A stretch of 64,000 nt of DNA from Acidobacteriota bacterium (GTDB taxonomy: Bacteria > Acidobacteriota > Vicinamibacteria > Vicinamibacterales > 2-12-FULL-66-21): NCBI GenBank assembly GCA_003223835.1, contig QHWR01000040.1, positions 15,134 to 79,133 on the forward strand, in the 5' to 3' direction. The notes under the pieces are model-generated. The model worked only from the letters and a program-made list of their open reading frames with translations, had not been told where the DNA came from and ran no database searches. This document shows, one piece after another, positions 13,837-41,343 of this stretch (its first letter is position 1; the number at the start of each line of letters is the position of its first letter). Position numbers and translations under genes: made by a program.

Positions 13837-13893
13837 CTCGCTTCCCGAAACTTTCGTTCTCGTTCACAGCCGAACGACACCATCGGAGGTTCG

Positions 13894-18212: not shown

Positions 18213-18226
18213 GGAAGGGAAACGTG

Positions 18227-18811
18227 ATGGGTTGGCCGGCAGGGATCGCGTTGGTGGCGGCGTTGACGGCAGGCGCGGGCGCGCAGGCGCCGAGCCAGGC
18301 GTCGAACACGGTGCGCATCGAGCTGTACCCCGACGCGCAGCCGCGCGCGAACCCCGTGGTGTTGACGTTCACCGGCGAGCAGTACGGCAAGGGCGTGCTC
18401 ATTTCCGCGTCGCCGAGCGGCGGCGGAAAGCCGTCGGACGACGTCGCGTTTCTGAGCACCCTGTTCGCCGCCGACGTCAACGGCACGATCGACGACATCC
18501 TGAAACTGTGGGACGTGCCGGACCGCGACGCGATCCGGCGGACCGCGTCGGATCCGCAGGCGTTCGAGGGGAACCGCAACTTCTATCGCGGCATCACGAC
18601 GTCCATGCTGCTGGCGAAGATGCTGTATGGGCCTTACGAGGTGCTGTTCGTCAAGCACGCGGGGGCGGCCCCCGTCGTCAAGGACTACCCCCTGATCCGG
18701 CGGAACGGGTCCCTGTATCTCACGAACGCGCTGCAGCGCGATCCGCTGTTCGTGTACGTGAGCACGAAGTACGCGCAGACGCTGCAGCAGGCAACGACCG
18801 ATGCGAAGTAA
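18227..18811 (+). CDS. Hypothetical secreted protein (194 aa)
   Basis: ATG 18227 preceded by gaggaaggga. It is in frame with the last 194 codons of track ORF 16265..18811. Has an N-terminal signal-like MGWPAGIALVAALTAGAGAQA. No family recognised. Confidence 0.6.
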   Translation: MGWPAGIALVAALTAGAGAQAPSQASNTVRIELYPDAQPRANPVVLTFTGEQYGKGVLISASPSGGGKPSDDVAFLSTLFAADVNGTIDDILKLWDVPDRDAIRRTASDPQAFEGNRNFYRGITTSMLLAKMLYGPYEVLFVKHAGAAPVVKDYPLIRRNGSLYLTNALQRDPLFVYVSTKYAQTLQQATTDAK

Positions 18812-20468: not shown

Positions 20469-21574
20469 TGCTGCTCCTCTGGACGCTCCTGATCGCGGCG
20501 CAGACGACGTCGGCACCCGGCGCGGCCGCGCGAGCGCCGGCGCCGGCCGATCGCGTCGAGGTCGTGCTGTTCTCCGACTTTCAGTGTCCGTTCTGCGCGC
20601 TGCTCGCGCAGCCGGTCCGCCAACTGGAGACCAAAGGCGTCGAGGGCGTGGACGTCACCGTCCGGTTCAAGAATTTCCCGCTCCCGATCCACCCGCGCGC
20701 GGCGCTCGCGCACCAGGCCGCGCTCGCCGCGATGCGGCAGGGCAAGTTCTGGGAGATGCACGACCTGCTCTTCGCGAACCAGCGCAAGGCGGAGCGCGAT
20801 GACGTGCTGGGATACGCGCGGACGCTGGGGCTCGACCTCGTTCGCTTCCAAAAGGACATCGACAGCGACGAGATCAAGGCGTCGATCGCCGCCGACAAGG
20901 CGGAAGGCGACAGGCGTCGCGTCACGGGAACGCCGACCTACTACATCAACGGCAAGCCGTACGTCGGCGCGCGCTCGTACGAGCAGTTGAAGCAGCTCGT
21001 CGTCGGCGAACAGCGTCGCGCGCGCGCGCTGGCCGACGTGACCGACACGATGGTGAGCCAGGGCGCGTCGGACGCGCCCGTGATCATCGAATTGTTTGCG
21101 GACCTCGAGAGTCCCATCAGTCCGTCGGCGGTGCGCGTGGTCGACGAGGTCATGGCGCGATATCCCGCGGAGGTTCGCGTGCAGTTCCGCAACCTGCCGC
21201 TCGCGTTCCATCCCGGCGCGGCGCTCGCGCACGAAGCGGCGATGACCGCCGCGAAGGCGGGGCGGTTCTGGGACTTCGCGCGCGGCGTGCTCGCGCGGCG
21301 GCAGCCGGCGACGGACCGCGACCTGATCGCGCTCGCCGGCCGCCTCGGCCTCGACGAGGCGGCGTTCGCCGACACGCTGCGCCAGCATCGCTACGCGGCG
21401 CGCGTGGACGCCGACCTCGACGTCGCGCGCACCCGCGGCGTGCGCGGCAGTCCGGCTCTGTTCGTCAACGGCAGGCGGATCGACGGCGTTCCGACGCTGG
21501 CCGTCCTGACCCAATACGTCGAAGCAGAACTCATGGCGAGGCACGTCGGGCGCCTGGAACAACACTCATCGTGA
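20465..21574 (+). CDS. Tandem DsbA-like thioredoxin-fold protein (two domains; the second lacks the CxxC)
   Basis: ATG 20465 overlaps the upstream stop (ATGA).
- Signal: MMLLLWTLLIAAQTTSAPG.
- Domain 1: …VEVVLFSDFQCPFCALLAQP…FKNFPLPIHPRAALAHQAALAAMRQGKFWEMHDLLF…
- Domain 2: …VIIELFADLESPISPSAVRV…FRNLPLAFHPGAALAHEAAMTAAKAGRFWDF… (SPIS in place of CPFC). Confidence 0.8.
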   Translation: MMLLLWTLLIAAQTTSAPGAAARAPAPADRVEVVLFSDFQCPFCALLAQPVRQLETKGVEGVDVTVRFKNFPLPIHPRAALAHQAALAAMRQGKFWEMHDLLFANQRKAERDDVLGYARTLGLDLVRFQKDIDSDEIKASIAADKAEGDRRRVTGTPTYYINGKPYVGARSYEQLKQLVVGEQRRARALADVTDTMVSQGASDAPVIIELFADLESPISPSAVRVVDEVMARYPAEVRVQFRNLPLAFHPGAALAHEAAMTAAKAGRFWDFARGVLARRQPATDRDLIALAGRLGLDEAAFADTLRQHRYAARVDADLDVARTRGVRGSPALFVNGRRIDGVPTLAVLTQYVEAELMARHVGRLEQHSS

Positions 21575-24500
21575 CCACTACCGCCACGCGTTTCGTCCGC
21601 CTGCTCGCGCTCGTCCTGCTGGCCGTGTGTCCGGCACGGGAGACGTTCGCGCAGCTCAACGAGAACTGCACGGTCAGCGTGCTCAACCGGAACGTCCGCG
21701 TCAACCCGGACGGCACGTGGGTCCTGCCCAACGTCCCGGCGAATTTCGGGCCGGTGCGCGCGCGCGCGACGTGCATCATCGACGGCAGGACGATCTCCGG
21801 CGAGTCCGAGCCGTTCCTGGTTCCGCCGAATGGCGCGGTGAACGTGCCGCGAATCGTGTTCGGCGAGCTGACCCCCATCCCCACGACCGTGACGGTCACC
21901 GCGCCGGCGTCCCTCCTGACGGCGCTGGGATCGACGCTGCAGCTCACCGTGACCGCGGCGTACGCCAACAACACCACGCGCGACGTGACGGCCGAGGCGA
22001 CCGGCACGCAGTACACGATCAGCAACTCCGCGATCGCGACCGTCAGCGGCAACGGCCTCGTGACGGCCGTCAAGGCGGGGATCGTGCTCGTCCAGGCCAC
22101 GCACGAAGGCGCGTCGGGCCTGATCTCGATCCGCATCGCGCCGTCCAACGCCGACGCAGACGGCGACGGGATCCCCGACGACGTGGAGGTCGCCCTCGGC
22201 TTGAACCCGCAGGATCCGACCGACGCCGCCGAGGACTTCGATCGTGACGGCCTCACGAACCTGCAGGAGTACCTGCTCGGCACGGACATCCGCAAGGCGG
22301 ACACCGACGGCGACGGCCTCACCGACGGCGACGAAGTCGCGCGCGGGACGAACCCGCTGCTCCGGGACACCGACGGCGACGGCATTTCCGACGGCCTCGA
22401 GGTGCAGACCGGCAGCAACCCGCTCGACGCGAACAGCTACAACCTCGCCGCCGCGCTCACGTCGGTCACCGTCGCGCCGGCGCAGTTCGTCCTGACGTTC
22501 AACACGATCCTCGGCGACGTGACGCTGCAGCTCAAGGTGACCGGGCATTTGAAAGACGGCTCGACGATCGATCTCACCTCGACGCGGCGCGGCACGAACT
22601 ACAACTCGAGCAACCTGAACGTCTGCAACTTCGGCGCGACCGACGGCATGGTCTTCGCCGGCGAAGAAGGCAGCTGCACGATTACCGCGACCGTTGCAAC
22701 CTTCACCGCGTCGTCATCCGGCAACGTCCACAAGTTCTCGCCGAAGCCGTTGTCGTTCGTCGATCTCGGCGGCCCGGGCAACAACATCGACGTGAGCGGC
22801 GACTACGCGTACGTCGCGGTCGGCGCGGCCGGGCTCAAGGTGGTGAACGTCAGCGATCGCAAGACGCCGCAAATCGTCGCGACGCTCAGCCTGCCGGGGA
22901 CCGCGAACGACGTGAAGCTCGCCGGGACCCGCGCGTATGTCGCCGCGGGCGCGGCCGGCCTCCACATCGTCGACGTCAGCAACCCGATTGCCCCCAGACT
23001 GATCGGCACGTTCGACACGGCGGGGAGCGCCAACGACGTGCGGTCGAACGGCAACCTCGCGTTCGTCGCCGATGGATCGGCCGGACTGGCCATCATCGAC
23101 GTCTCGACGCCGGATACGCCGCGGCTGATCGGCGCGCTGAGTGGGATTGGCACGGCCAACGGCGTCGACGTCGTCGGCGGGCTCGCCCTCATCGCCAACG
23201 GATCCATGCTGCGCGTCGTGGACGTGAGCAATCCCGCGAACCCGCGATCGATCGGCACGGTCAACCTGCCCGGCGACGCGCAGGACGTCGTGGCCAGAGG
23301 CACGACCGCGTACGTCGCGGACTACACCGGCAGCCTGCAGGTCGTGGACTTCACGACGCCGACGGCGCCCGTCGTGGTCGGGACGACGACGCAGGCGCTC
23401 GGCGGCATCCTCTACGACGTCGCCGTGTCCGGCAACTTCGTGTTCGGCGCCGACATCTTCTTCGTCAACGGCGTGCCGATCGTCGACGTCACGAATCCGC
23501 ACAGCCCGATCCCGCGGGCGATCCTCGACTTCCGGCAGTTCCGGGACGACAACGGGTCCGGCATCGCGGCGGACGGCAGCTACGTCTACCTGACGACCCT
23601 CGAGGGCCGGCTCTACATCGGCCAATACCGCCTGCTCGAGGATCTCTATGGCGTGGCGCCGACGGTCAGCATCTCGGCGCCGGCGCCGGGCGCGACGTTC
23701 GTCGAAGGGGAAACGATCCCGGTCAGCGTGGTCGCAACCGACGACGTGTCGGTCACGGCCGTCACGCTCGAGGTCGACGGCGCCGCCGCGGCGACCGACA
23801 CGACGGCGCCCTATCAATTCACGGTCACGGCGCCGCACGGCGCGACGGGCGTCACGCTCGGCGCCTCCGCCGTCGATCTCGGGAACAACGTTGGCGTCGC
23901 GGCGGACATCCAGGTCGCCGTGACACCCGATCCGCTGACGACAGCGGCGGGGCGCGTGGTGGACCGGAACGGCACGCCGGTTGGCGGCGCGACCGTGTCG
24001 TGTCTCGCGCACACGGGCGTCACGACACCGGACGGCGCGTTCGCGATCCCCGGACTGCCGACCATTCAGCCGACGGTCCTGTGCACCGCCGATTACGTCG
24101 ATGCGCAGGGGATCACGCAGCACGGCGCGTCGGCGCGCGTGCCGCCGGTCCGCGGCGGGATGACGCAGGTCGGCGACATCCGGCTGCTGGCGGTTCCCGT
24201 GATCGCCTCGATCACGCCGAAGGCGATCGACTCGTTCCGGCCGCCCACCACGCTTCACGTGACGGGCGTGAACCTCACCGGCGCGACGTTCGCGTTCGTG
24301 TCCGACACGACGCCGATCGTGACCGCTGGAACGCCGCAGATCGACGCCGGCGGGACGTCGGCGACGCTGCCGATCAACGTGACGTTCGGCGCGCAGGGCA
24401 CGCTCGTGCTGACGGCGACCAACAGCGTCGGGACGTCCGAGACGTTCGCGACCGCCGGCAATTCGCTCGTGGTGCTCAGCCTGACGCCGGCCGGCGACGC

Positions 24501-27500
24501 CGACAACGACGGCCTGACCAACGAGTACGAACTGGCGATCGGCACGGATCCCACGAGTCCCGACACCGATCACGATGGCATCCCCGACGGATGGGAAGTC
24601 CGGTTCGGCCTCAATCCGCTCGACGCGGCCGACGCGAACCAGGACGCGGACGGCGACGGCGCCACGAATCTGGAGGAGTTCGCCGCCGGCACCAGCCCGG
24701 TCAACCCGCACACCGTGCCGCCGGCGGTAGCGGAAGTGTTCCCGGCGAACGGCGCGACGAATTACCCGACGAACGGCGTGGTGATTGTCCGCTTCGACGA
24801 GCCGCTGCTGACAGCGGTGGCGATCGACGTCGCGAAGCAGGCGCTCGGCGCCGCGTTACCGGCGAGCCAGAGCCAGGTGGACCTCACAGCGGCGGCGCAG
24901 GCGCTGCAGGCGTACCTGCGGACGCACGGTGAAGGGGACACGGTCGTGCCGGGCACCGTCCGCGTGAGGCGGAACGGGATCGACGTGGCCGGCGCCGTCA
25001 CCTTGTCGAACGACAAGTTGTCGATCACGTTCACGCCGTCGCAGGCGCTGCTGGCGTCCTCGCTGTACACCGTGACCGTCGCCGGCGTTCGCGACGCCGC
25101 CGGCAATCCCATGACGCAGGCGTTCGAGAGCGTGTTCACCACCGGCCAGTCGGGGGACACGAGCGCTCCGCGCGTGTTGCTGACCAACCCGTCGAGCGGC
25201 ATGTCGGGCGTGCCGGTCAACGCGCCGGTGACCGTGCAGTTCACCAAACGTCTCGATCCCGCGACGCTGACCGCGCAAAGCTTCGCCGCGTACGACAACT
25301 TCACCGGCCAGCAGGTCGCCGGGATGATCCAGATGGAGCCGAGCGGTCTCGTCGCGTCGTTCGTCCCGCAGACGACGTGGGCGCCGGGCCGATCGTTCAG
25401 CGTCTATCTGAACACCGACATCAAGGACTCGGCCGGCAACCGGCTCCAGTCGTACTCGTTCTCGTTCTCGACGGCGTTCTTCGCCGACGCGCAGGGCCCG
25501 CACATCGTGGGCACCAGTCCCGCGGACGGCGATACGAACGTGCCGTTGAACGTCCCGATCGTCGTGCAGTTCGACGAGGCCGTGAACACGATTCGCGGGG
25601 CGGCGGGCGTCCAGGTGTTCGCGCAGGGCCAGCCCATCCCGGGCTCGATCGCGCTTTCCGACGGCAACCGGCGGATCACGTTCACGCCGGCGTCGGCGCT
25701 GGCGCCGAACACCGCTTACACCATCGTTCCGAGCGCGCAGCTCACGGACATCGCGGGGAACCTCGTTGCCGCGTTCACGAACGCGACGTTCACGACGGGC
25801 GCCGCGGCGGACAACACCACGCCGTCCGTGACGGCGGTGAGTCCCGCGAATGGCGCCGGGGGAGTGCCGACCAATACGGTCGTCCAACTGAGCTTCAACG
25901 AGCCGATCAACCGGCTGACCGTGAACGCCGCGACCTTCGTCGTGTATCCGCAGGCGACCGGCATCCCGGTGGCGGCGACCTATGCGGTCTCCGCGGACGG
26001 TCGAAACGCGACGCTGATTCCGGCCAGCCCGCTCGTCTCGCTGACCGGCTATTACGTCAGCATGAGCGGCATCTCGGATGCCGTCGGTCATGCGACGTCT
26101 ACATTCACGAGCTTTACGACCGGCGCGGCCGCCGACACCGCGCCGCCGACGGTCGTGGCGATCAGCCCGGCCGGCGGCGCGACCAACGTGCCGCTCAACG
26201 CGCGCGTCGTCGTGCGCCTGAGCGAACCGATCAACCCCTCCTCGGCGACGACGGCCGCGGTGAAACTGACCGCGGGGGGCAATGCGGCAGCGGCGACGGT
26301 GGCGCTGAGTGCCGACCGCCTCACGATCACGCTGACGCCGGGGGCGCCGCTCGCCGCCTCGACGCTCTACACGGTCAAGGTCAGCGGGCTCACGAACCTC
26401 GCGGGCCTGGAGGTCGTGGCGGCGACCAGCACGTTCACGACCGGCACCGCCGCCAGCGGTCCGCAGCTCGCGGTCACCTCGTTCACGCCGGCCAACAACA
26501 GCGTGAACGTGCCGGTGGACAGCCCGATCCTCGTGACGTTCAACGCGCCGATCGATCCGACGTCGGTCAACGTCAACTCGGTCTTCGTGTTCGTGTCCGG
26601 AGCGGGAGCGGTCTCCGGCACGTTTGCCGTCCAGGGCAACAGCGTGACCTACACGCCCGTGAGTTCATTCCCCGGCAATACGACCGTGTCGGTGCAGGTG
26701 TCCGGCGTCCTCGACGTCGCCGGCCACGGGAACAACTTCGCGAGCATGTCGTTCCGCACGGTCGCCGCGCCCGACACGACCGCGCCGGCGGTGATCAGCG
26801 TGACGCCCGGGGACGGCGCGATGGGCATCGGGCTCAACGCGCAGGTGGTCGTGACCTTCTCGGAGTCGGTGAACCCGTCGACGGTGAACAACAACACGAT
26901 CGCGCTGTTCGCGAACGGCGGCCGCTTCGGCAACATCGCGGGGATCTCGGCGGACAACCGCACCGTCGTGCTGAACGGTGGAATGTTGCCGGCGTCGAGC
27001 GTCGTCACGGTGGCGCTCACGAGCGCGATACAGGATCTGTCGGGGAACAGGCTCGCCGACTTCACGACGGCGTTCACGACGGCGCCTCCCTTCGACACGG
27101 CACGGCCGTCGGTCGTCAGCCAGCGGCCCGGCAACGGCGCGAGCGGCGTGGCCGCGGGAACCCGCATCGTGCTCTTCCTGAGCGAGCCGCTCGACGCGAC
27201 CACGGTGCCCTCCGCGCTGCACGTGTCGCAGAACGGCGCGTTGGTCGACGGCGTGGTGCAGGTCAGCGGCAACGGCCAGGTGATTCAGTTCTTCCCGGCG
27301 GAGCCGTGGGCGGGCAACGCGCTGGTTCAGGTGTTCCTCGACACGACCGCGCGCGATCTGCAGGGCAACAGCGTCTCGGCGTATCAGGCCTCGTTCCGCA
27401 CCGCCGCGGATCCGCAAACGACGCGTCCGGTGGTGACGGCGGTCAGCCCGGTGTACGGCGCGGGGAATGCGCCGCTCAACACGGTCGTCACGATCGGGTA

Positions 27501-30500
27501 CAGCCTGCCGCTGGATCCCGCGACGGTGACGGCGACTACGGTCACGATGACCGGACCGGCCGGCGCGGTGAACATCGCCGTCACGCTCGACGCGACCGGC
27601 CAGGTCATTCGCCTCGTGCCGGCGGGCCCGCTGGTTGCGAACTCGTACTACTTCTACCAGACGACGGCCGCGATCCGCGGGATCAACGGGCTGGCGCCGC
27701 AGAATCCCGGGTCTTGGTACTTCTATACGGGCGGACCCCTCGACGCGACCGCGCCCGCGGTGCGGTCCATCACGCCGCCGCCCGCGGCCGTCAGCGTCGG
27801 CGACAACGCGCGCATCATCGTGCGTTTCACGGAGCAGGTGAATCCGCTCACCGTCAACGGGACGACGCTTTCGGTCGCTGCGAACGCGTCCGTGCCCACG
27901 TCGGTCACGTTCTCGAACCAGAACATGGACGTGTATCTGGAGCCGTACGCGCCGCTGCCCGACGGGCAGTCGGTAACGGTCGCCATCGCCGGCGTCACCG
28001 ATATCGCCGGCAATCCCGTGACCGCCACGTCGGCGCAATTCACCGTCGGCGCGGGACCTGACGTGAAACCGCCGACGACGCTCGCGGAGAACCCCGTCAA
28101 CGGCCTCACGAACGTGCCGATCAATGCCGTCGTCTCGCTGCTGTTCAACGAGCCGATCGATCCGAGCTCCGTCACGCCGGGCGCGTTCCAGGTCTACGAC
28201 AACGTCGTCGGCCAGGTGAGCGGCAGCTACACGGTGAGCGGCGACGGCCGGCTGGTGACCTTCGTCCAGGCGAAGCCGTTCGGCATCGACCGGTCGCACA
28301 GCGTGTACTTCGCGAACCAGGGGATCACCGATCTCGCGGGCAACCTCGCGAACGGCTCGGGCTTCTCGAACTTCAGCTTCACGACGGGCGTGTCGGCGAA
28401 CGTCACCGGCCCGCAGGTGATCGGGATCAGCCCGGCCGATCAGCTCACGGACGTCTCGCGCAACGCGCAGGTCGTCATCGATTTCGATCGGCCGATCAAC
28501 ACGCTCACGGCGCCGCAGATCGCGCTGTCGGCGGCCGGGTCCCCCGTCGCGACGTTCACGTCGTTCTCGAGCGGCGACCGGCGCGTCACGCTGACGCCCG
28601 TGAATCCGCTCGCGGCGGCGACGGTTCACGCGATCACGATCGGCGCGATTACGGATCTGAGCGGCGCGCCGCTTGCGACGCCCGTCGTCACGCAGTTCAC
28701 CACCGCGCCGGGCGTGGATCTGGTCGGCCCGCAGGTCACGTCGGTGAGCCCTGCGAACGGCGCGACGTCCGTGCCGACGAACACGGTCGTCCAGTTGACC
28801 TTCAGCGAGCGGATGAACCCGCTGACGGTGAACGGGAGCACGTTCCAGGTGTACCCGCAGGCGACGGGATTGCCGGTCGCGGGCGTCTACGTCGTGGCGA
28901 GCGACGGCCGAAGCGCTACCTTCACGCCGAGCGCCGCGCTCTCCGCATCCACGGGCTACTACATCAGCGTCAGCGGGATCGCCGATCTCACCGGCCAGGG
29001 GGCGAACACTTTCACCAGCTTCGCGACGGCCGCGGGACCGCAGATCGCACGTCCGACCGTTGCCGGGATCAGCCCGCCTGACGGCGCCACGAACGTGCCG
29101 TTGAACGGCCGCGTCGTCGTCCGGATGAGCGAGCCGGTGAGCCCGCTCTCGCTCAACGCGGAGGCGCTGACGTTATCGGCCGCCGGCAGCCTCGTGCCGG
29201 CCGCGGTGGCTCTCAGCGGGGATCGCCTCACTCTCACGCTGACGCCGAACGCGCCGCTCACCGCGTCGACGACGCATACGGTCGCCATCGCGCATCTGAC
29301 CAACGTCGTCGGCGCCGAAGTGCTGCCCGTGACGAGCGCCTTCACGACGGGCACGACGACGGCCGGCAGCAATTCGCTGACCGTGTCGTCGATCGCGCCA
29401 GCCAACGGCGCGCAGAACGTGCCCGTGGACAGCACGGTGAGGGTCACGTTCAGCACGGCTGTCGATCCGACCTCCGTCAACGTGAATACGGTGACGATCT
29501 ATCTGTCGGGCGTGACCAATCTGGCGGGTTCGTACGTGGTGCAGGGGGCGACGGTCACATTCACGCCGCTCAATCCGCTGCCCGGGAACACGACGATCTC
29601 GGTGCAGGTCTCCGGCGTCGTCGACTTCGCGGGACACGGGAACAACTACACGAACATCTCGTTCAAGACGGCGGCAGTGCCCGATACGACGGCGCCCACC
29701 GTCGTCAGCATCACCCCGAGCGAGGGCGCGACCGGCGTCGGGCCGAACGCGCAGGTCGTGATCGCGTTCTCGGAGTCGCTGAACGCCGCGACGGTGAGGA
29801 ACAACACCGTGGCGCTGTTCGTGAACGGCGCGCGGTTCGGCAACGTGGTGTCGGTCTCGGCCGACGCCCGCACCGTCGTCCTCGGCGGCGGCACGTGGCC
29901 GGCGTCGAGCCTCGTCACGGTGGCGTTGACGAGCGCGGTGCAGGACGTGTCCGGCAATCCGCTCGCGGACTTCACGAGCACCTTCACGACGGCGCCCGCG
30001 TTCGACACGGCGCGGCCGTCGGTGGTGAGCCAGCGGCCCGCGAACGGCTCGAGCGGCGTCGCTGCGAGCACGGACGTGGTGTTCTTCCTCAGCGAACCGC
30101 TCGATCCGGCGACGGTGCCGGACGCCGTGCACATCTCCGAGAACGGCGTGCTGGTGGACGGCACGGTGCAGGTGAGCGGCAACGGTCAGGTGATTCAGTT
30201 CGCGCCGGCGGAGCCATGGGCGGGCGGCGCGTTGATTCAGGTCTTCCTCGAATCGAGCGCGCGCGATCGCAACGGCAATAGTGTCTTCGCGTATCAGGCG
30301 TCGTTCCGCACGGCGTCCGATCCGCAGACGACGAGGCCGGCCCCGACCGCGGTGAGCCCGGTGTACGGCGCGTCGAACGTGCCGCTCAATACGGCGATCA
30401 CGATCGGCTACAACGTCCCGCTCGATCCGGCGACCGTGACGACGAGCACCGTCACGATGAGCGGCCCCGCCGGCGCGGTCAGCGCGGCCGTCAGCCTCGA

Positions 30501-33500
30501 CGCGACGGGCCAGGTGATCCGTCTCGTGCCGTCGGCGCCGCTGCTGCCGAACAATTACTACTACTACCAGGTGAGCACCGCGATCCGCGGAACGAACGGC
30601 CTGACGCCGCAGAACCAGGGTTCCTGGTACTTCTACACCGCGACGACGAGCGATACGATCGCGCCCGGCGTCCTGTCGGTGACGCCGCCTGCCGCCGCGA
30701 TCAACGTCGGCGACAACGCGCGCATTGTCGTGCGCTTCACCGAGCCGGTGAACACGCTCACGGTGAACGCGGCGACGCTGTCGGTAAGGGGCACGACGCC
30801 GATCGCCGGCGCGCTCAGCTTCGCCAACCAGAATCAGGACGTGTATCTGGAGCCGTTCACGCCGCTGCCCGACGGGCAGGTCCTGACGGTGGCGATCGAC
30901 GGCGTGACCGACGTCGCGGGGAATCCCGTCGCGGCGGTGACGTCGCAGTTCGCCGTCGGCGCCGGACCCGACGTGGCGGTGCCGGTGGTGCTCGCCATCA
31001 ATCCGGTGAACGGCCTCACGAACGTGCCGACGAACGTGGCGGTCTCGCTGCTCCTGAACGAGCCCATCGATCCGAGCTCGGTGACGCGCTCGAGCCTCCA
31101 GATCTACGACAACGTCGTCGGCCAGGTGAACGGCGCCTACACGGTGAGCAGCGACGGCCGCACGGTGACGTTCGTGCCGGGCGCGCCGCTCGGCGTGAGC
31201 CGCTCGCACAGCGTGTACTTCGCCAATCAGGGGATGACCGACCTCGCCGGCAATCTGGTGAACGGGTCGGGCTTCTCGAACTTCAGCTTCACGACGGGCG
31301 CGTCCGCGAACACGACGGCGCCGCAGGTGGTCGGGATCAGCCCGGCGGATCAGCTGACCGACGTCTCGCGCAACGTGCAGGTCGTCGTCGATCTCGATCG
31401 CCCGATCGACACGCTGACGGCGTCGCAGATCACGCTTGCGGCGAGCAGCGGAACGATCCCGGTCATCATGACGTTCGCCAACGGCGACCGCCGGATCACG
31501 CTGACGCCGATCGCGCCGCTGGCGGCCGCGACCGCCTACACCGTCACCGTGGGCGCGATTACGGATCTCAGCGGGATTCCGCTCGCCACGCCGGTGGTCA
31601 GTCATTTCACGACCACGACCGGCGTCGATCTGAACGGACCGCAGGTGAGCGTCGTCAGCCCGATCAACGGTGGAACGGGTGTGCCGACGAACGCGCTGAT
31701 TCAGCTCGGGTTCACCGAGCGCATGAATCCGCTGACCGTCAACGCCGGCACGTTCCGGCTCTATCCGCAGGCGACGGGGATTGTGATTGCCGGATCGTAC
31801 TCGGTCGCCGCCGACGGCCGGAGCGCGACGTTCACGCCGTCCGCGCCGCTGGCGCCGTCGACCGCCTACTACATCGACGTCAACGGCGTCGTGGATCTGA
31901 CCGGACAGGCCGCCTCGACGTTCACGAGCTTCACGACCGGGACAGCCGCGCAGGTCGCGCGGCCGACGGTCGTCACCGTCAGTCCGGCTGACGGCACGTC
32001 GGACGTGCCGCTCAACGCCAAGGTGTCCATGCTCGTGAGCGCGGCGATCAGCCCCGTGACGATCGGGAGCATGGCCGTCACGTTGTCGGCCAACGGCAGC
32101 AGCGTCGCCGGATCGATCTCGCTCAGCGCGGATCGCAGACAACTGACGCTGACGCCCGCCGCCGCGCTGGCGCCGAATACCACTTACACGGTGTTCGTCG
32201 GCGGCTTCGCGGACGTCGCCGGCAACCTCGTGCTGCCGTTCGGCAGCACGTTCACGACCGGGACCGCGGCGACCGACACCGGGCCGCTCGTCGTGAGCGC
32301 CTTCACCCCGGCGAACGGCACCCAGAACGTGCCGGTGAACAGCACCGTCGTCGTCCGGTTCAACAAGGCGGTCAGCCCGGTGACCGTCAACACGAACACG
32401 ATCGTGGTGTCGTACGCCGGCGTCAGCCACGTGGCGGGCGCCTACGCGGTCAGCGGCGGCACGGTGACGTTCACGCCGGCGAGCCCGTTCCCAGGCAATA
32501 CCAGCATCTCGGTGCAGGTGACGGGCGTCCAGGATCTGATCGGCAACGCGAACGGGTTCGCGTCCGCCTCCTTCGTGACGGCCGCCGTGGCGGATACGAC
32601 GCCGCCCGAGGTGGCGAGCGTGACGCCCGCCGACGGATCGGGCGACGTCGGCCTCAACGCGCAGGTCGTCGTGACGTTCTCCGAATCGCTGAATCCCGCG
32701 ACGGTGAGCAACAACACGTTCGCGTTGTTCGCCAACGGCATCCGCATCGGCAACATCGCGTCGGTGTCGGCCGACAACCGGACCGTCGTGCTGAGCGGCG
32801 GCACACTGCCGGCCGCGAGTCTCATCAGCCTCGTCATCACGAGCGCCGTTCGTGACCTCGCCGGGAACGCGCTCGCGGACTTCGTGAGCGGGTTCACCAC
32901 CGAGGATGCGCCCGACACGTCACGGCCGAGCATCGTGAGCCAGCGGCCGGCGAACGGCGCGAGCGGCGTGTCCGCCGCGAGCGGCGTCGTCCTGTTCGTC
33001 AGCGAGCCGCTCAACCCCGCAACCGTCGGGGCGGCGATCCACGTCTCGCAGAACGGCGTGCTCGTCGACGGGACGGCGCAGGTGACCGGCAACGGGCAGG
33101 TGATTCAGTTCCAGCCGGCCGTGGCGTGGGCGCCGAACGCGCTGATCCAGGTGTTCCTCGACGGCAACGCACAGGATCTGCAGGGCAACGCGCTCAACTC
33201 GTACCAAAGCTCGTTCCGGATCGCCGTCGATCCGCAGACCGCCGCGCCGGTCGCGACCGCGGTGAGCCCGGCGTACGGCTCGCAGAACGTGCCGCTGAAT
33301 CCGAGCATCGCCGTCGGTTACAACCAACCGCTCGATCCCGCGACGGTCAATACGTCCACGGTCAGCCTGAACGGCCCCGCGGGCAGGGTCAACGCGTCGG
33401 TCGGCCTCGATTCGACGGGAACGGTGATTCGGATCCTGCCCGTTGACGCGAGCAACAACCGGGTCGATCTGGCGCCCAACGCGTTCTACTACTACCAGAC

Positions 33501-34878
33501 GAACGGGATTCGCGGCACGAACGGCGTCGCCGCGCAGAATTCGGGCTACTGGTACTTCTACACGGGCACCGATCGCGACGCGACGGCGCCGTCCGTGCGC
33601 GCCATCACGCCGCCGGCGGGCTCGACGAACGTCGGCGACAACGCTCGCATCGTCGTCCGCTTCTCCGAGCCGCTGAATCCGTTGACGGTGAACAATGGGA
33701 CGATCGCGGTGACGGGCGCCGCGGCTGTGACGGGCTCCTTCAGTTTCGCCAACCAGAACAAGGATGTGTATCTCGAACCGTACGCGCCGTTGCCGGATAG
33801 CCAGACGCTCACGATCACGATCGCGGGCGTGACCGACGTCAGCGGCAACGCGGTGACCACGACGACCGCTCAGTTCGGCGTGGCGGCGGGCCCGGACGTC
33901 GCGGTGCCGGTCGTCCTGGCGGAAAACCCGGTCGGCGGGCTGACGAACGTGCCGACGAACGCCGTCGTCTCGCTGCTGCTGAACGAGCCGATCGATCCGG
34001 GCTCGGTGACCACCTCCACGATGCAGGTGTACGACAACGTTCTCGGCAAGCAGGTCGCCGGGAGCTACGCCGTCAGCAGCGACGGACGGACGATCAGCTT
34101 CGTGGCCGACTCGCCGCTCGCCGCGAACCACAGCCACAGCGTGTACTTCGCCAATCAGGGGATGACGGATCTGGCGGGCAACCTCGTGAACGGCAGCGGC
34201 TTCTCGAACTTCAGCTTCACCACCGGATCGACGGCGGACCTCACCGGACCGCAGGTCACCGCCATCAGCCCGGCGGATCAATTGACGAACGTGCCGCGCA
34301 ACGGGTCCGTCATGATCGGGTTCGATCGGCCGATCAACACGCTGACGGCATCGCAGATCACGCTTGCCACCGCGGCCGGAACGCCCGTGCCGGTCGCGAG
34401 GACGTTCTCGAACGGCGACGCGCGCGTCACGCTGACGCCGCTCGCGCCGCTGTCCGCCTCGACTTCTTACAGGGTCACGGTAGGCGCCGTCGCGGACCTG
34501 ACCGGCACCGCGCTGGCGACGCCGGTGGAGAGCCGCTTCACCACCGGCACCGGGGCCGATCTGACGCCGCCCGTGGTCACGAGCGTGTCGCCGATCAACG
34601 GCGCGCAAAACGTGCCGACGAACGTCGTCGTCCAGGTCACGTTCAACGAGCGGATGAATCCGCTGACGATCGCGCGCTCGACGTTCCAGGTGATCGATCA
34701 GAGCACCGGCATCGCGATCGCGGGCGACGTCGTCGTGTCGTCCGACGGCTTGACGGCGGCGTTCATTCCGGCGGCGGCGCTGACGCCGTCGGCGGGCTAC
34801 TATGTGCAGGGCTCCGGATGGGCGAACCTGGCGGGCCTGCAGACGAGCGTGTTTACGAGTTTCAGAACGGGTCAATGA
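21571..34878 (+). CDS. Giant (4,435 aa) secreted multidomain Ig-repeat protein: Big_2, TSP3-like Ca-binding repeats, LVIVD propeller repeats, then ~31 SbsA/Big_5-like Ig modules
   Basis: Uninterrupted 13,308-nt ORF. The GTG start overlaps the upstream stop (GTGA). Signal peptide MTTTATRFVRLLALVLLAVCPARETFAQ. Domain calls come from motif reading (see findings). The long antisense ORFs across it are Arg-rich shadows. Confidence 0.92.
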   Translation: MTTTATRFVRLLALVLLAVCPARETFAQLNENCTVSVLNRNVRVNPDGTWVLPNVPANFGPVRARATCIIDGRTISGESEPFLVPPNGAVNVPRIVFGELTPIPTTVTVTAPASLLTALGSTLQLTVTAAYANNTTRDVTAEATGTQYTISNSAIATVSGNGLVTAVKAGIVLVQATHEGASGLISIRIAPSNADADGDGIPDDVEVALGLNPQDPTDAAEDFDRDGLTNLQEYLLGTDIRKADTDGDGLTDGDEVARGTNPLLRDTDGDGISDGLEVQTGSNPLDANSYNLAAALTSVTVAPAQFVLTFNTILGDVTLQLKVTGHLKDGSTIDLTSTRRGTNYNSSNLNVCNFGATDGMVFAGEEGSCTITATVATFTASSSGNVHKFSPKPLSFVDLGGPGNNIDVSGDYAYVAVGAAGLKVVNVSDRKTPQIVATLSLPGTANDVKLAGTRAYVAAGAAGLHIVDVSNPIAPRLIGTFDTAGSANDVRSNGNLAFVADGSAGLAIIDVSTPDTPRLIGALSGIGTANGVDVVGGLALIANGSMLRVVDVSNPANPRSIGTVNLPGDAQDVVARGTTAYVADYTGSLQVVDFTTPTAPVVVGTTTQALGGILYDVAVSGNFVFGADIFFVNGVPIVDVTNPHSPIPRAILDFRQFRDDNGSGIAADGSYVYLTTLEGRLYIGQYRLLEDLYGVAPTVSISAPAPGATFVEGETIPVSVVATDDVSVTAVTLEVDGAAAATDTTAPYQFTVTAPHGATGVTLGASAVDLGNNVGVAADIQVAVTPDPLTTAAGRVVDRNGTPVGGATVSCLAHTGVTTPDGAFAIPGLPTIQPTVLCTADYVDAQGITQHGASARVPPVRGGMTQVGDIRLLAVPVIASITPKAIDSFRPPTTLHVTGVNLTGATFAFVSDTTPIVTAGTPQIDAGGTSATLPINVTFGAQGTLVLTATNSVGTSETFATAGNSLVVLSLTPAGDADNDGLTNEYELAIGTDPTSPDTDHDGIPDGWEVRFGLNPLDAADANQDADGDGATNLEEFAAGTSPVNPHTVPPAVAEVFPANGATNYPTNGVVIVRFDEPLLTAVAIDVAKQALGAALPASQSQVDLTAAAQALQAYLRTHGEGDTVVPGTVRVRRNGIDVAGAVTLSNDKLSITFTPSQALLASSLYTVTVAGVRDAAGNPMTQAFESVFTTGQSGDTSAPRVLLTNPSSGMSGVPVNAPVTVQFTKRLDPATLTAQSFAAYDNFTGQQVAGMIQMEPSGLVASFVPQTTWAPGRSFSVYLNTDIKDSAGNRLQSYSFSFSTAFFADAQGPHIVGTSPADGDTNVPLNVPIVVQFDEAVNTIRGAAGVQVFAQGQPIPGSIALSDGNRRITFTPASALAPNTAYTIVPSAQLTDIAGNLVAAFTNATFTTGAAADNTTPSVTAVSPANGAGGVPTNTVVQLSFNEPINRLTVNAATFVVYPQATGIPVAATYAVSADGRNATLIPASPLVSLTGYYVSMSGISDAVGHATSTFTSFTTGAAADTAPPTVVAISPAGGATNVPLNARVVVRLSEPINPSSATTAAVKLTAGGNAAAATVALSADRLTITLTPGAPLAASTLYTVKVSGLTNLAGLEVVAATSTFTTGTAASGPQLAVTSFTPANNSVNVPVDSPILVTFNAPIDPTSVNVNSVFVFVSGAGAVSGTFAVQGNSVTYTPVSSFPGNTTVSVQVSGVLDVAGHGNNFASMSFRTVAAPDTTAPAVISVTPGDGAMGIGLNAQVVVTFSESVNPSTVNNNTIALFANGGRFGNIAGISADNRTVVLNGGMLPASSVVTVALTSAIQDLSGNRLADFTTAFTTAPPFDTARPSVVSQRPGNGASGVAAGTRIVLFLSEPLDATTVPSALHVSQNGALVDGVVQVSGNGQVIQFFPAEPWAGNALVQVFLDTTARDLQGNSVSAYQASFRTAADPQTTRPVVTAVSPVYGAGNAPLNTVVTIGYSLPLDPATVTATTVTMTGPAGAVNIAVTLDATGQVIRLVPAGPLVANSYYFYQTTAAIRGINGLAPQNPGSWYFYTGGPLDATAPAVRSITPPPAAVSVGDNARIIVRFTEQVNPLTVNGTTLSVAANASVPTSVTFSNQNMDVYLEPYAPLPDGQSVTVAIAGVTDIAGNPVTATSAQFTVGAGPDVKPPTTLAENPVNGLTNVPINAVVSLLFNEPIDPSSVTPGAFQVYDNVVGQVSGSYTVSGDGRLVTFVQAKPFGIDRSHSVYFANQGITDLAGNLANGSGFSNFSFTTGVSANVTGPQVIGISPADQLTDVSRNAQVVIDFDRPINTLTAPQIALSAAGSPVATFTSFSSGDRRVTLTPVNPLAAATVHAITIGAITDLSGAPLATPVVTQFTTAPGVDLVGPQVTSVSPANGATSVPTNTVVQLTFSERMNPLTVNGSTFQVYPQATGLPVAGVYVVASDGRSATFTPSAALSASTGYYISVSGIADLTGQGANTFTSFATAAGPQIARPTVAGISPPDGATNVPLNGRVVVRMSEPVSPLSLNAEALTLSAAGSLVPAAVALSGDRLTLTLTPNAPLTASTTHTVAIAHLTNVVGAEVLPVTSAFTTGTTTAGSNSLTVSSIAPANGAQNVPVDSTVRVTFSTAVDPTSVNVNTVTIYLSGVTNLAGSYVVQGATVTFTPLNPLPGNTTISVQVSGVVDFAGHGNNYTNISFKTAAVPDTTAPTVVSITPSEGATGVGPNAQVVIAFSESLNAATVRNNTVALFVNGARFGNVVSVSADARTVVLGGGTWPASSLVTVALTSAVQDVSGNPLADFTSTFTTAPAFDTARPSVVSQRPANGSSGVAASTDVVFFLSEPLDPATVPDAVHISENGVLVDGTVQVSGNGQVIQFAPAEPWAGGALIQVFLESSARDRNGNSVFAYQASFRTASDPQTTRPAPTAVSPVYGASNVPLNTAITIGYNVPLDPATVTTSTVTMSGPAGAVSAAVSLDATGQVIRLVPSAPLLPNNYYYYQVSTAIRGTNGLTPQNQGSWYFYTATTSDTIAPGVLSVTPPAAAINVGDNARIVVRFTEPVNTLTVNAATLSVRGTTPIAGALSFANQNQDVYLEPFTPLPDGQVLTVAIDGVTDVAGNPVAAVTSQFAVGAGPDVAVPVVLAINPVNGLTNVPTNVAVSLLLNEPIDPSSVTRSSLQIYDNVVGQVNGAYTVSSDGRTVTFVPGAPLGVSRSHSVYFANQGMTDLAGNLVNGSGFSNFSFTTGASANTTAPQVVGISPADQLTDVSRNVQVVVDLDRPIDTLTASQITLAASSGTIPVIMTFANGDRRITLTPIAPLAAATAYTVTVGAITDLSGIPLATPVVSHFTTTTGVDLNGPQVSVVSPINGGTGVPTNALIQLGFTERMNPLTVNAGTFRLYPQATGIVIAGSYSVAADGRSATFTPSAPLAPSTAYYIDVNGVVDLTGQAASTFTSFTTGTAAQVARPTVVTVSPADGTSDVPLNAKVSMLVSAAISPVTIGSMAVTLSANGSSVAGSISLSADRRQLTLTPAAALAPNTTYTVFVGGFADVAGNLVLPFGSTFTTGTAATDTGPLVVSAFTPANGTQNVPVNSTVVVRFNKAVSPVTVNTNTIVVSYAGVSHVAGAYAVSGGTVTFTPASPFPGNTSISVQVTGVQDLIGNANGFASASFVTAAVADTTPPEVASVTPADGSGDVGLNAQVVVTFSESLNPATVSNNTFALFANGIRIGNIASVSADNRTVVLSGGTLPAASLISLVITSAVRDLAGNALADFVSGFTTEDAPDTSRPSIVSQRPANGASGVSAASGVVLFVSEPLNPATVGAAIHVSQNGVLVDGTAQVTGNGQVIQFQPAVAWAPNALIQVFLDGNAQDLQGNALNSYQSSFRIAVDPQTAAPVATAVSPAYGSQNVPLNPSIAVGYNQPLDPATVNTSTVSLNGPAGRVNASVGLDSTGTVIRILPVDASNNRVDLAPNAFYYYQTNGIRGTNGVAAQNSGYWYFYTGTDRDATAPSVRAITPPAGSTNVGDNARIVVRFSEPLNPLTVNNGTIAVTGAAAVTGSFSFANQNKDVYLEPYAPLPDSQTLTITIAGVTDVSGNAVTTTTAQFGVAAGPDVAVPVVLAENPVGGLTNVPTNAVVSLLLNEPIDPGSVTTSTMQVYDNVLGKQVAGSYAVSSDGRTISFVADSPLAANHSHSVYFANQGMTDLAGNLVNGSGFSNFSFTTGSTADLTGPQVTAISPADQLTNVPRNGSVMIGFDRPINTLTASQITLATAAGTPVPVARTFSNGDARVTLTPLAPLSASTSYRVTVGAVADLTGTALATPVESRFTTGTGADLTPPVVTSVSPINGAQNVPTNVVVQVTFNERMNPLTIARSTFQVIDQSTGIAIAGDVVVSSDGLTAAFIPAAALTPSAGYYVQGSGWANLAGLQTSVFTSFRTGQ
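25819..34878 (+). repeat. Intragenic tandem super-repeat: a ~2.9-kb (nine Ig modules) unit, about 3.1 copies
   Basis: Unit starts:
- 25819: TPSVTAVSPANGAGGVPTNTVVQLSFNEPINRLTVNAATFVVYPQATG
- 28726: GPQVTSVSPANGATSVPTNTVVQLTFSERMNPLTVNGSTFQVYPQATG
- 31636: GPQVSVVSPINGGTGVPTNALIQLGFTERMNPLTVNAGTFRLYPQATG
- 34564: TPPVVTSVSPINGAQNVPTNVVVQVTFNERMNPLTIARSTFQV
Spacings are 2907, 2910 and 2928 nt. The copies have diverged (roughly three-quarters aa identity by eye). Confidence 0.85.

Positions 34879-37462: not shown

Positions 37463-41343
<3,881 letters not shown>

What the first reader, a model, noticed from the sequence alone, without database searches (positions are those of the whole stretch)
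21571..34878. 13.3-kb uninterrupted gene for a 4,435-aa secreted Ig-repeat mega-protein with no recognisable anchor or enzymatic domain
**What the sequence shows**
- One ORF of 13,308 nt with a cleavable-looking signal peptide (…LLAVCPARETFAQ).
- A Big_2-like module (…LQLTVTAAYANNTTRDVTAEATGTQYTISNSAIATVSGNGLVTAVKAG…).
- Two blocks of thrombospondin-type-3-like Ca-binding runs, approx 22150..22440 and 24490..24700 (DADGDGIPDD, DTDGDGLTDGDE, DTDGDGISDG, DADNDGLTNEYE, DTDHDGIPDG).
- A block of LVIVD-type propeller repeats at approx 22800..23640 (AGLKVVNVSD, AGLHIVDVSN, AGLAIIDVST, LRVVDVSN, LQVVDFTT).
- CarboxypepD_reg-like and IPT/TIG-like modules.
- About 31 consecutive ~100-110-aa modules of the SbsA/Big_5 Ig type, each starting x-x-P-x-V-x-x-x-x-P-x-x-G-x-x-x-V and ending F-T/R-T-G/A.

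**Why it matters**
- The protein ends abruptly (…SFRTGQ) with no sorting signal I recognise (no LPXTG, PEP-CTERM, T9SS CTD, autotransporter or T1SS GGxGxD).
- How a ~450-kDa protein is exported and retained is therefore an open question.
- The combination of LVIVD propeller, TSP3 and a Big_5 rod points to an adhesin or S-layer-like fibre, but that is inference.
Basis: partly seen in the sequence, partly recalled or inferred. Interest (0 to 1): 0.8.

Follow-up and report, generated by a model that had tools for sequence, protein, structure and literature searches.

The report
Giant Ig-rod protein on shared head
A real, intact 13.3-kb gene in a soil Acidobacteriota (Vicinamibacterales-like) genome encodes a 445-kDa exported protein whose first ~840 residues are a widely shared "head", here carrying an unusually long rod of 31 Ig-like modules; it is probably a cell-surface or matrix fibre, and how it is exported and held is still untested.

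Summary
ORF 21571..34878 (+) is uninterrupted and encodes 4,435 aa. It has a Sec signal peptide, Big_2, 7 TSP3 calcium motifs in two blocks, a 7-bladed LVIVD propeller, Big_7, a CarboxypepD_reg-like domain and 31 Big_5 modules. It stops exactly at a module boundary, with no known C-terminal sorting signal. Three independently assembled contigs from other samples, two of which together span the gene, match it at 99.6-99.9% without indels. The 9-module super-repeats are only 70-72% identical in DNA, so this is not an assembly artefact.

The new point is that residues 29 to ~870 form a conserved head shared by thousands of mainly Acidobacteriota proteins, 45-64% identical in the alignment. Their C-terminal parts are unrelated: PA14, LamG, lectins, Kelch, FG-GAP, a 19x CarboxypepD_reg array. 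The Big_5 rod is one rare payload, seen elsewhere only in one related locus.

The head gene sits in a recurring operon: a large Glucodextran_B/OmpL47-like Ig protein, a di-haem DHOR cytochrome, and a tandem DsbA with one active and one redox-dead domain. Here the gene overlaps the flanking genes at both ends.

My reading is that the conserved part, and any retention function, is N-terminal, and the rod is the variable projecting part. This is a new variant of a known kind (giant Ig-repeat surface proteins). Export across the outer membrane remains unresolved.

The parts
21571..21654 (+). Signal peptide, aa 1-28. The GTG start overlaps the TGA stop of the upstream DsbA gene (GTGA). Predicted SPase I cut after TFA, leaving N-terminal Gln.
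21655..21870 (+). N-terminal conserved domain, aa 29-100. It is a small beta-sandwich containing an invariant Cys33-Cys68 pair (a disulfide between them is inferred) and invariant L-N-R, D-G-x-W and N-x-P residues. It matches no Pfam family.
21883..22140 (+). Big_2 Ig-like domain, aa 105-190.
22147..22455 (+). TSP3 calcium-binding block 1, aa 193-295, with four DxDxDG motifs.
22456..22740 (+). Second Ig-like domain, aa 296-390. The Big_2 match is weak (E 0.006). Cys352 and Cys369 match Cys in the family consensus.
22744..23628 (+). Seven-bladed LVIVD beta-propeller, aa 392-686.
23659..23928 (+). Big_7 Ig-like domain, aa 697-786.
23932..24180 (+). CarboxypepD_reg-like domain, aa 788-870. This is the end of the family-wide conserved head.
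24193..24480 (+). Beta-sandwich, aa 875-970, recognised by fold only with no Pfam match.
24487..24708 (+). TSP3 calcium-binding block 2, aa 973-1046, with three DxDxDG motifs. Model confidence is low here.
24721..25815 (+). Big_5 modules 1-3, aa 1051-1415. Module 1 is split by an insertion (aa ~1116-1120 between the two HMM matches; content not characterised).
25822..28728 (+). Super-repeat copy 1, nine Big_5 modules, aa 1418-2386.
28729..31638 (+). Super-repeat copy 2, aa 2387-3356. It is 67% identical to copy 1 in protein.
31639..34569 (+). Super-repeat copy 3, aa 3357-4333. It is 60-63% identical to copies 1 and 2.
34570..34878 (+). Terminal Big_5 module 31, aa 4334-4435, plus the stop codon. 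The final CAA-TGA overlaps the ATG of the next gene (ATGA). No C-terminal sorting domain.
13807..18212 (+). Partner gene for a large secreted Ig protein with Glucodextran_B/OmpL47-type domains, Big_1, CarboxypepD_reg and a Cys-rich C-terminus. The window splits it into two frames through a ~49-nt loss at 16403-16408. In L027 it is a single ORF of up to 1,511 aa. A relative is present upstream of the head gene in all eight loci examined.
18209..18811 (+). Exported protein of 200 aa with no family match. It was seen only in this lineage.
18801..20468 (+). DHOR-type di-haem cytochrome c with two CxxCH motifs. NCBI names members of the DHOR2 cluster 'thiol oxidoreductase'.
20465..21574 (+). Tandem DsbA. 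Domain 1 has an active CPFC motif. Domain 2 has SPIS in place of CxxC, so it is redox-dead. This arrangement is conserved in four loci.
34875..36398 (+). Second DHOR-type di-haem cytochrome c, with its own signal peptide. Its start overlaps the stop of the giant gene.

Best explanation
The gene encodes a Sec-exported, acidic (pI 4.4), 445-kDa extracellular fibre, and it is one member of a large polymorphic family.

The conserved N-terminal head (aa 29-870) comprises a novel Cys-pair domain, Big_2, a TSP3 block, an Ig domain, a 7-bladed LVIVD propeller, Big_7 and a CarboxypepD_reg-like domain. It is the constant chassis of the family. I infer that it carries whatever is common to all members. 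That would be oxidative folding by the operon's own DsbA, calcium loading of the TSP3 linkers, and docking to the co-conserved Glucodextran_B-type partner protein or to the cell envelope.

The C-terminal part is the lineage-specific payload. Here it is a cysteine-free rod of 31 Big_5 Ig-like modules: 3 modules, then 3 copies of a 9-module super-repeat, then 1 module. At roughly 3-4 nm per Ig-like module it would be of the order of 100 nm long. That figure comes from my own knowledge of other BIg adhesins and was not measured here. The rod would project from the head as a spacer or adhesive filament, or as a matrix scaffold.

Shown: the gene is real and intact; the architecture; the conserved head with variable payload; operon synteny and overlapping start/stop codons with both flanking genes; no known C-terminal anchor; and more synonymous than non-synonymous differences between variants, a pattern consistent with purifying selection on small counts.

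Inferred: an extracellular location, an N-terminal (head-proximal) attachment, and the folding role of DsbA and DHOR.
For: - The ORF, its domains and the 31 modules are established.
- Independent contigs confirm the length with no indels.
- Between variants, synonymous differences outnumber non-synonymous ones in codons: 20 against 8, 7 against 4, and 17 against 9.
- The head is 45-64% identical to the 68 aligned homologues, with invariant Cys, Asp and Gly positions up to about aa 868, and nothing conserved after that.
- About 140 of the best 150 cluster representatives carry the full head at or near their N-terminus (about six carry it after a ~200-aa extension). Their lengths run from 858 to 3,554 aa.
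- The payloads differ between members: PA14, LamG_3, lectin, FG-GAP, beta-helix, Kelch with He_PIG, and a 19x CarboxypepD_reg array.
- Synteny holds across loci. The partner Ig protein is present in 8 of 8 loci, and DHOR with the tandem DsbA in 5 of 8.
- The gene shares GTGA and ATGA stop/start overlaps with its neighbours.
- All six Cys of the mature chain lie in the head, and the DsbA has an active CPFC motif.
- The AF2 models are confident: head pLDDT 88 and rod pLDDT 89. The rod is all-beta and resembles multi-Ig chains, including S-layer proteins.
- The host has LPS and outer-membrane genes, namely a heptosyltransferase, an O-antigen ligase and a TonB-dependent receptor.
Against: - There is no direct evidence of location, expression or partner binding.
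- No outer-membrane translocator or secretion-system gene lies in the 64-kb window, so the route across the outer membrane is unknown.
- The rod carries no distal 'tip' domain, unlike homologues whose payloads are lectin-like.
- A few family members carry about 200 aa before the head. This weakens the idea that the extreme N-terminus is a sorting signal.
- The propeller matches only generic WD40-like propellers, so no ligand can be inferred.
Confidence: 0.55

Rival explanations
1. The protein is a released extracellular matrix or biofilm scaffold protein. It is secreted and not retained on the producing cell. The calcium-binding TSP3 blocks and the propeller would bind exopolysaccharide or other matrix components, and the rod would act as a cross-linker.
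For: No anchor of any known type was found. The composition is acidic, low in Lys and cysteine-free. Calcium-binding motifs are present. All operon products carry signal peptides and none has a membrane anchor.
Against: This rival cannot be told apart from the cell-attached model with sequence data. The conserved head-plus-partner pairing suggests a defined complex more than a free polymer.
Confidence: 0.25
2. The protein is an S-layer-like lattice protein. The Big_5 modules would self-assemble into a two-dimensional array on the outer membrane, as the Ig arrays of SbsB, SbsC, Sap and EA1 do.
For: The Pfam Big_5 family and the Foldseek hits to the S-layer assembly domains of Sap, EA1, SbsB and SbsC support a resemblance.
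Against: It is four or more times longer than the matched S-layer chains (about 590-720 residues in the solved structures). No SLH or other cell-wall anchoring domain was found. The TM-scores are low (0.1-0.2), which reflects only generic Ig chains. The head family carries many non-S-layer payloads.
Confidence: 0.07
3. The protein is a polymorphic effector or toxin-delivery protein. On this view the conserved N-terminus is a trafficking module and the variable C-termini are effectors, as in Rhs, CDI or teneurin-like systems.
For: The family has a conserved N-terminus with variable C-termini. The partner protein also varies at its C-terminus and has a PGAP1/lipase-like end in L002. Big_5 arrays occur alongside RHS repeats in other proteins. 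There is a weak PDB sequence hit to bacterial teneurin-like proteins.
Against: The payloads detected are binding or structural modules, not nucleases, deaminases or pore formers. No immunity-like small gene follows the giant gene; the next gene is DHOR. No RHS/YD shell, PAAR or TPS domain was found.
Confidence: 0.05
4. The ORF is an assembly artefact, meaning a repeat expansion or collapse, or a chimaera.
For: The window contig does carry at least three local defects elsewhere: a 49-nt loss at about 16405, a 19-nt loss at about 36689 and a loss at 38850. The gene is repetitive.
Against: The super-repeat copies are only 70-72% identical in DNA. Three independently assembled contigs from other samples are collinear with it and show no indels or N runs across the gene. 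A related locus, L024, has the same 9-module super-repeat.
Confidence: 0.03

Closest known systems
Giant T1SS BIg/RTX adhesins (SiiE, LapA, MpIBP)
   Same: These are also giant, acidic, calcium-binding proteins. They are built from tens of tandem bacterial Ig-like modules that form a long rod used for surface adhesion. SiiE is 595 kDa with 53 BIg domains (PMC5466336).
   Different: Those proteins have no Sec signal peptide. They carry a C-terminal T1SS signal and RTX repeats, are encoded next to ABC/MFP/OMP genes, and are retained through the T1SS. Here there is a Sec signal peptide, no GGxGxD motif and no T1SS genes in 64 kb. The modules are of the Big_5 type.
S-layer proteins with Ig-like arrays (SbsA/SbsB/SbsC, Sap, EA1)
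   Same: They contain Big_5/Ig-like beta-sandwich chains and are among the best structural matches of the rod model.
   Different: The matched solved chains are only about 590-720 residues long. From my own knowledge they come from monoderm bacteria and are anchored by SLH or similar N-terminal domains; no SLH domain was found here.
Choice-of-anchor B / LVIVD-repeat surface proteins (TIGR04312, PF08309)
   Same: They share an LVIVD beta-propeller in exported proteins.
   Different: The score is only 24-30 bits against a cut-off of 100 and covers a partial region. In that family the variable part is the C-terminal anchor. Here the variable part is a large payload and no anchor is present.
TSP3-repeat adhesion proteins of Myxococcus (MtsD, CglD) and Amuc_1099-type proteins
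   Same: They share bacterial TSP3 calcium-binding repeats in secreted cell-cohesion or motility-adhesion proteins.
   Different: The matches cover the TSP3 repeats only. The scores of 53-65 bits are far below the equivalog cut-offs of 400-800, and the rest of the architecture is not shared. The Amuc_1099 match passes its cut-off (57.7 against 50) but covers only 57 residues of TSP3 repeat.
Polymorphic proteins with a constant N-terminus and variable C-terminus (Rhs/teneurin-like, CDI)
   Same: The organisational logic is the same: a conserved N-terminal region, swappable C-terminal regions, and tandem paralogues in some loci (L025).
   Different: No YD/RHS shell, TPS or PAAR domain is present. 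The payloads are binding or structural modules, and no immunity gene was found.

Membership tests
T1SS RTX/BIg giant adhesins | C-terminal RTX nonapeptide repeats (GGxGxD) and an uncleaved C-terminal secretion signal | tested here: not met
   There is no GGxGxD motif anywhere and no HemolysinCabind hit. The last 102 aa are a plain Big_5 module.
T1SS RTX/BIg giant adhesins | No N-terminal Sec signal, and adjacent ABC transporter, MFP and TolC-like genes | tested here: not met
   A Sec-type signal peptide is present and conserved. No such genes lie in the 64-kb window.
T9SS cargo | C-terminal Por_Secre_tail/CTD domain | tested here: not met
   No PF18962 hit was found in the protein or in its last module at E<=1. 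The organism is Acidobacteriota.
PEP-CTERM / exosortase substrates | C-terminal PEP motif, transmembrane helix and basic tail | tested here: not met
   There is no 'PEP', no hydrophobic stretch and no PF07589 hit. A separate small PEP-CTERM protein does occur in the related locus L002.
Autotransporters / intimin-invasin (T5SS) | Outer-membrane beta-barrel translocator domain in the same chain, or a TpsB partner | tested here: not met
   No barrel domain appears in Pfam or in the AF2 model of aa 29-1050. No TpsB/POTRA gene is nearby.
Bacterial lipoproteins | Lipobox [LVI][ASTVI][GAS]C at the end of the signal peptide | tested here: not met
   The regex finds none. Cys20 is preceded by Val and lies 9 residues before the conserved AxA|Q site.
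S-layer proteins (SLH-anchored) | SLH or another cell-wall-binding domain plus a self-assembling Ig array | tested here: inconclusive
   An Ig array is present and resembles S-layer arrays, but no SLH domain was found. Self-assembly cannot be tested here.
Choice-of-anchor B (TIGR04312) | Score at or above the curated cut-off of 100 bits over the domain | tested here: not met
   The scores are 24.3 and 30.2 bits and cover profile positions 261-338 only.
Head family (uncharacterised; defined here) | Signal peptide followed by the QLNENCTVSVLNR domain, then Big_2, TSP3, Ig, LVIVD propeller and Big_7 (with or without CarboxypepD_reg), collinear over about 790-870 aa | tested here: met
   Identity to the 68 aligned homologues is 45-64%. 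About 140 of the best 150 representatives align collinearly from their N-terminus.
Head family (uncharacterised; defined here) | Operon context: a Glucodextran_B/OmpL47-type Ig protein upstream, often with DHOR and a tandem DsbA | tested here: met
   All three are present in the window. The partner occurs in 8 of 8 loci and DHOR with DsbA in 5 of 8.

The most novel reading that the evidence does not exclude
The head and its operon (the partner Ig protein, the active-plus-dead tandem DsbA and the di-haem DHOR proteins) would form a previously undescribed Acidobacteriota surface-display system. In it, an N-terminal ~800-aa chassis, not a C-terminal sorting tag, directs maturation, outer-membrane passage and retention of interchangeable payloads. 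The di-haem protein would serve as the extracytoplasmic oxidant for the dedicated DsbA. The 4,435-aa protein would be its longest cargo found in these searches.
Probability: 0.2. Interest if true: 0.7.

Novelty: new variant of a known kind. Interest (0 to 1): 0.42.

Why it matters
Acidobacteriota are among the most abundant soil bacteria, yet how they build their cell surface and attach to particles is poorly known. This gene leads into a very large family with no family-level name or function in the libraries and papers I could search. The head query gave 15,268 cluster representatives at E<=1e-30, though some of those match only the repeat domains. The family shares one N-terminal chassis and one operon context but displays many different binding modules. 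If the chassis is the export and retention device, it would be a sorting principle different from the known C-terminal tags (LPXTG, PEP-CTERM, T9SS CTD) and from T1SS retention. It would also explain how such proteins do without a C-terminal anchor. On its own, a 445-kDa Ig-repeat protein is not unusual for bacteria.

Tried and rejected
- An exact look-up of the giant protein in the contig index found nothing. It may have failed because the GTG start is translated as V; this was not tested. The flanking DsbA and DHOR genes were used instead and worked.
- The genome-contig scan with the head returned only five full-length relatives, because the peptide patterns were too specific. The other hits were TSP3 repeats alone.
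- Foldseek of the head model against the PDB returned only generic WD40-type propellers and large multidomain proteins, which is uninformative about a ligand.
- A PDB sequence search with three Big_5 modules found nothing.
- The word-indexed protein search lists nothing longer than about 1.8 kaa and did not return the query's own protein. I therefore did not use it for length comparisons and relied on the representative library instead.
- Promoter and terminator scans gave nothing above the shuffle expectation, apart from one promoter-like site at 13807.
- Literature searches (LVIVD with Acidobacteria; Big_5, giant, adhesin; DUF1111) found no description of this family or operon.
- I tested whether stop/start overlap explains the excess of C-terminal Arg in homologues. 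It explains the window's own CAA-TGA but not the family-wide bias.
- I considered a lipoprotein anchor through Cys20 and rejected it because there is no lipobox.
Full report
**1. The observation**

ORF 21571..34878 (+) is the only long ORF there with coding-type composition. GC3 is 0.92 over 13.3 kb, and the many antisense or off-frame ORFs are by-products of 68% GC. The GC3 frame plot changes frame at about 21560. The upstream frame belongs to a DsbA gene whose TGA overlaps the GTG start (GTGA). The stop is equally tight: CAA-TGA overlaps the ATG of the next gene.

The translation has no internal stop. Pfam gives Big_5 x31 (1458 bits), LVIVD x6, TSP3_bac, Big_7 and Big_2. An HMM built from the protein itself places 31 modules from aa 1051 to 4435, spaced 105-114 aa apart.

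CarboxypepD_reg is supported only when the segment is scanned alone (33.6 bits against a cut-off of 32.3). The 'IPT/TIG' module has no profile support and is just a beta-sandwich in the model.

The C-terminus is a plain Big_5 module that ends where its paralogous copies end. There is no LPXTG, GGxGxD, PEP motif, lipobox, hydrophobic stretch or sorting-domain hit.

**2. It is not an assembly artefact**

Self-BLAST shows a 2,907-nt super-repeat of nine modules in three copies plus one extra module. The copies are only 70-72% identical in DNA and 60-67% identical in protein. That is far too diverged for collapse or expansion.

Exact look-ups place the window on an NCBI soil MAG contig labelled 'Acidobacteria bacterium' (PYR79112-PYR79126, 79.6 kb). 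Its NuoF clusters at 90% identity with Vicinamibacterales MAG proteins.

Contigs assembled independently from other samples carry the same gene:
- L027 covers aa 1-3334 at 99.73% identity.
- L026 covers aa 1103-4435 at 99.88% identity and has the same stop.
- L029 covers aa 1-2527.

None shows a gap. Differences between these variants are mostly synonymous, at 20 against 8, 7 against 4, and 17 against 9 codons. This pattern is consistent with purifying selection, but the counts are small.

The window contig does have small defects elsewhere, listed in section 8. None lies inside the giant gene.

**3. What the N-terminal third really is**

A search with aa 1-1050 found more than 3,800 proteins. 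The best are 47-67% identical over 72-97% of the query, apart from one truncated hit at 53% coverage. The few that are named are Pyrinomonadaceae or Vicinamibacterales 'Ig-like domain-containing proteins'.

An alignment of 69 sequences shows conservation from the signal-peptide cleavage site to about aa 868 and none after that. The mature N-terminus QLNENCTVSVLNR... is conserved, with invariant Cys33 and Cys68.

A full HMMER scan of 1.84 billion cluster representatives gave 15,268 hits at E<=1e-30. Some of these will be repeat-only matches. About 140 of the best 150 align collinearly with the head, most from their own N-terminus and about six after a ~200-aa extension, and they are 858-3,554 aa long.

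Their C-terminal parts are unrelated to one another. They include PA14, Laminin_G_3, legume lectin, FG-GAP/VCBS, beta-helix, lactonase-type propellers, Kelch with He_PIG, extra LVIVD propellers and a 19-fold CarboxypepD_reg array. None of the 141 newly returned representatives among the best 150 has a Big_5 rod.

The only other rod-bearing member I found is locus L024. Its head is 67% identical and it has the same 9-module super-repeat at 53-65% identity, but there the gene is broken by frameshifts.

AlphaFold2 with this alignment gives a confident head model (pLDDT 88). The domains in order are:

| Residues | Feature |
|---|---|
| 29-100 | small beta-sandwich, no Pfam family |
| 104-189 | Big_2 |
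| 193-295 | TSP3 loops and short helices |
| 296-389 | Ig-like domain |
| 392-685 | seven-bladed propeller |
| 697-786 | Ig-like domain (Big_7) |
| 788-870 | CarboxypepD_reg-like domain |
| 875-970 | further beta-sandwich |

. Structural neighbours of the propeller are generic.

**4. The rod**

The nine module types of the super-repeat are individually conserved in many other Big_5 proteins from several phyla. The unit is therefore old. The AF2 model of one super-repeat is all-beta with nine sandwiches (pLDDT 89). Its best PDB matches are multi-Ig chains: Chlamydomonas FMG1B, DSCAM, and the S-layer proteins Sap, EA1, SbsB and SbsC. The TM-scores are low, as expected for flexible chains.

The mature protein is 4,407 aa and 445 kDa, with a pI of 4.4. 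It has 23 Lys and six Cys, all of them in the head.

**5. Context**

The gene lies in core chromosome, between the nuo operon and selA, purH, LPS-core, prs, pth, rpsF, dnaB, alr and radA genes. It is not in a mobile island. The LPS genes and a TonB-dependent receptor show that the host has an outer membrane.

The local cluster runs in this order:
1. a Glucodextran_B/OmpL47-type Ig protein with a Cys-rich C-terminus;
2. a 200-aa exported protein;
3. a DHOR di-haem cytochrome c;
4. a tandem DsbA;
5. the giant gene;
6. a second DHOR.

The same order recurs in other loci (L002, L024, L025 and the P0001 contig). The partner Ig protein is also present in L001, L003 and L004.

The tandem DsbA has an active CPFC/CPYC motif in domain 1. 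In domain 2 the CxxC is replaced by SP(I/V)S. This is conserved in all four loci compared. Each DHOR has two CxxCH motifs, and NCBI calls members of the DHOR2 cluster 'thiol oxidoreductase'.

Other loci add a homologous Gly-rich secreted protein of about 400 aa after the head gene. It is absent here.

**6. Interpretation**

*Shown.* This is a real, constrained, exported giant protein. Its conserved part is N-terminal and its variable part is C-terminal. It is co-inherited with a partner Ig protein and, in 5 of 8 loci, with a periplasmic disulfide and haem module, and its coding sequence overlaps both flanking genes.

*Inferred.* The head is the constant functional base for folding, calcium loading and docking. 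The Big_5 rod is a projecting filament of the order of 100 nm, a per-module length taken from my knowledge of other BIg adhesins. It is not solved: no outer-membrane translocator is encoded nearby.

*Rivals.* The alternatives are a released matrix scaffold, an S-layer-like lattice and a polymorphic effector. The first cannot be separated from my preferred model with sequence data alone.

**7. Comparison and novelty**

The protein works like the giant BIg adhesins (SiiE, LapA) and resembles S-layer Ig arrays. It fails the defining tests of T1SS, T5SS and T9SS cargo, PEP-CTERM substrates, lipoproteins and choice-of-anchor B proteins (see the membership table).

The head family and its operon do not appear in the literature I could search. 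At 4,435 aa the protein is below the 5,000-aa 'huge protein' threshold of PMC11573180.

I rate it a new variant of a known kind, of moderate interest. The interest lies in the family architecture, not in the size.

**8. Noticed in passing**

- The window contig has three small losses relative to other assemblies. They artificially split three genes: the partner Ig protein, a DDAH-like gene and a TonB-dependent receptor.
- Half of the 120 homologues end in Arg, across unrelated payloads. This is unexplained.
- A semi-conserved Cys sits in the signal-peptide h-region without forming a lipobox.

Noticed in passing
window 16403-16408 (ORFs 13807-16494 and 16302-18212): The large Glucodextran_B/OmpL47-like Ig protein is split into two frames in the window. 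About 49 nt that are present in L027 are missing here, and L028 has an N-gap at the same spot. In L027 the gene is a single ORF of up to 1,511 aa. This is probably a gap-closure artefact of the MAG contig.
   Followed up: yes
window ~36689 (ORFs 36395-36856 and 36529-37146): A DDAH/amidinotransferase-like gene is frameshifted by a 19-nt loss relative to L026. In L026 it is an intact 256-aa gene that overlaps the DHOR2 stop.
   Followed up: yes
window 38850 (ORFs 37463-38929 and 38938-41343): A TonB-dependent receptor (CarboxypepD_reg, Plug and OMP_b-brl_4) is split into two frames. L026 has a scaffold N-gap at exactly this point, so the split is probably another local assembly defect and not a pseudogene.
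   Followed up: partly
homologues P0001-P0120 (one search set): Of the 120 head-family proteins, 60 end in Arg and 19 in Pro, often as P-x-R. The bias spans at least seven unrelated C-terminal payload groups. The window protein ends in Gln. Stop/start overlap with the next gene does not fully explain the bias.
   Followed up: partly
window 20465-21574, and L002, L024, L025: The tandem DsbA has an active CPFC motif in its first domain, but SP(I/V)S replaces CxxC in the second. This active-plus-redox-dead pair is conserved in all four loci compared. It also gives a sub-threshold hit to the Rcas_1661 thioredoxin-like (seleno)lipoprotein family, and selA lies 20 kb downstream.
   Followed up: partly
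window 21628-21630 (Cys20) and homologues: Many family members have a Cys in the signal-peptide h-region about 9 residues before the AxA|Q cleavage site (L-x-L-C-A/T). The residue at -1 is L or V, so it is not a canonical lipobox.
   Followed up: partly
L002 15048-16358; L025 14148-15359 and 19759-20778: In other loci a homologous Gly-rich secreted protein of 340-436 aa, with no Pfam hit, directly follows the head gene. Its sequence is rich in GGSGGGG...IRLVA-type repeats. It is absent from the window.
   Followed up: partly
L025 7464-9950 and 15624-19685: Locus L025 carries two tandem head-family genes with different C-termini. Toxin-antitoxin-like pairs (PIN; HepT with a nucleotidyltransferase) are inserted between the operon genes.
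   Followed up: no
L024 13285-23285: In the ENA contig ERZ25039565:contig_48045, the nearest relative of the giant gene is fragmented into many Big_5 ORFs by frameshifts. Giant members of the family may therefore be under-counted in protein databases.
   Followed up: partly
window 41434-42837 (-): A selA gene (L-seryl-tRNA(Sec) selenium transferase) is present, so the organism probably makes selenoproteins.
   Followed up: no
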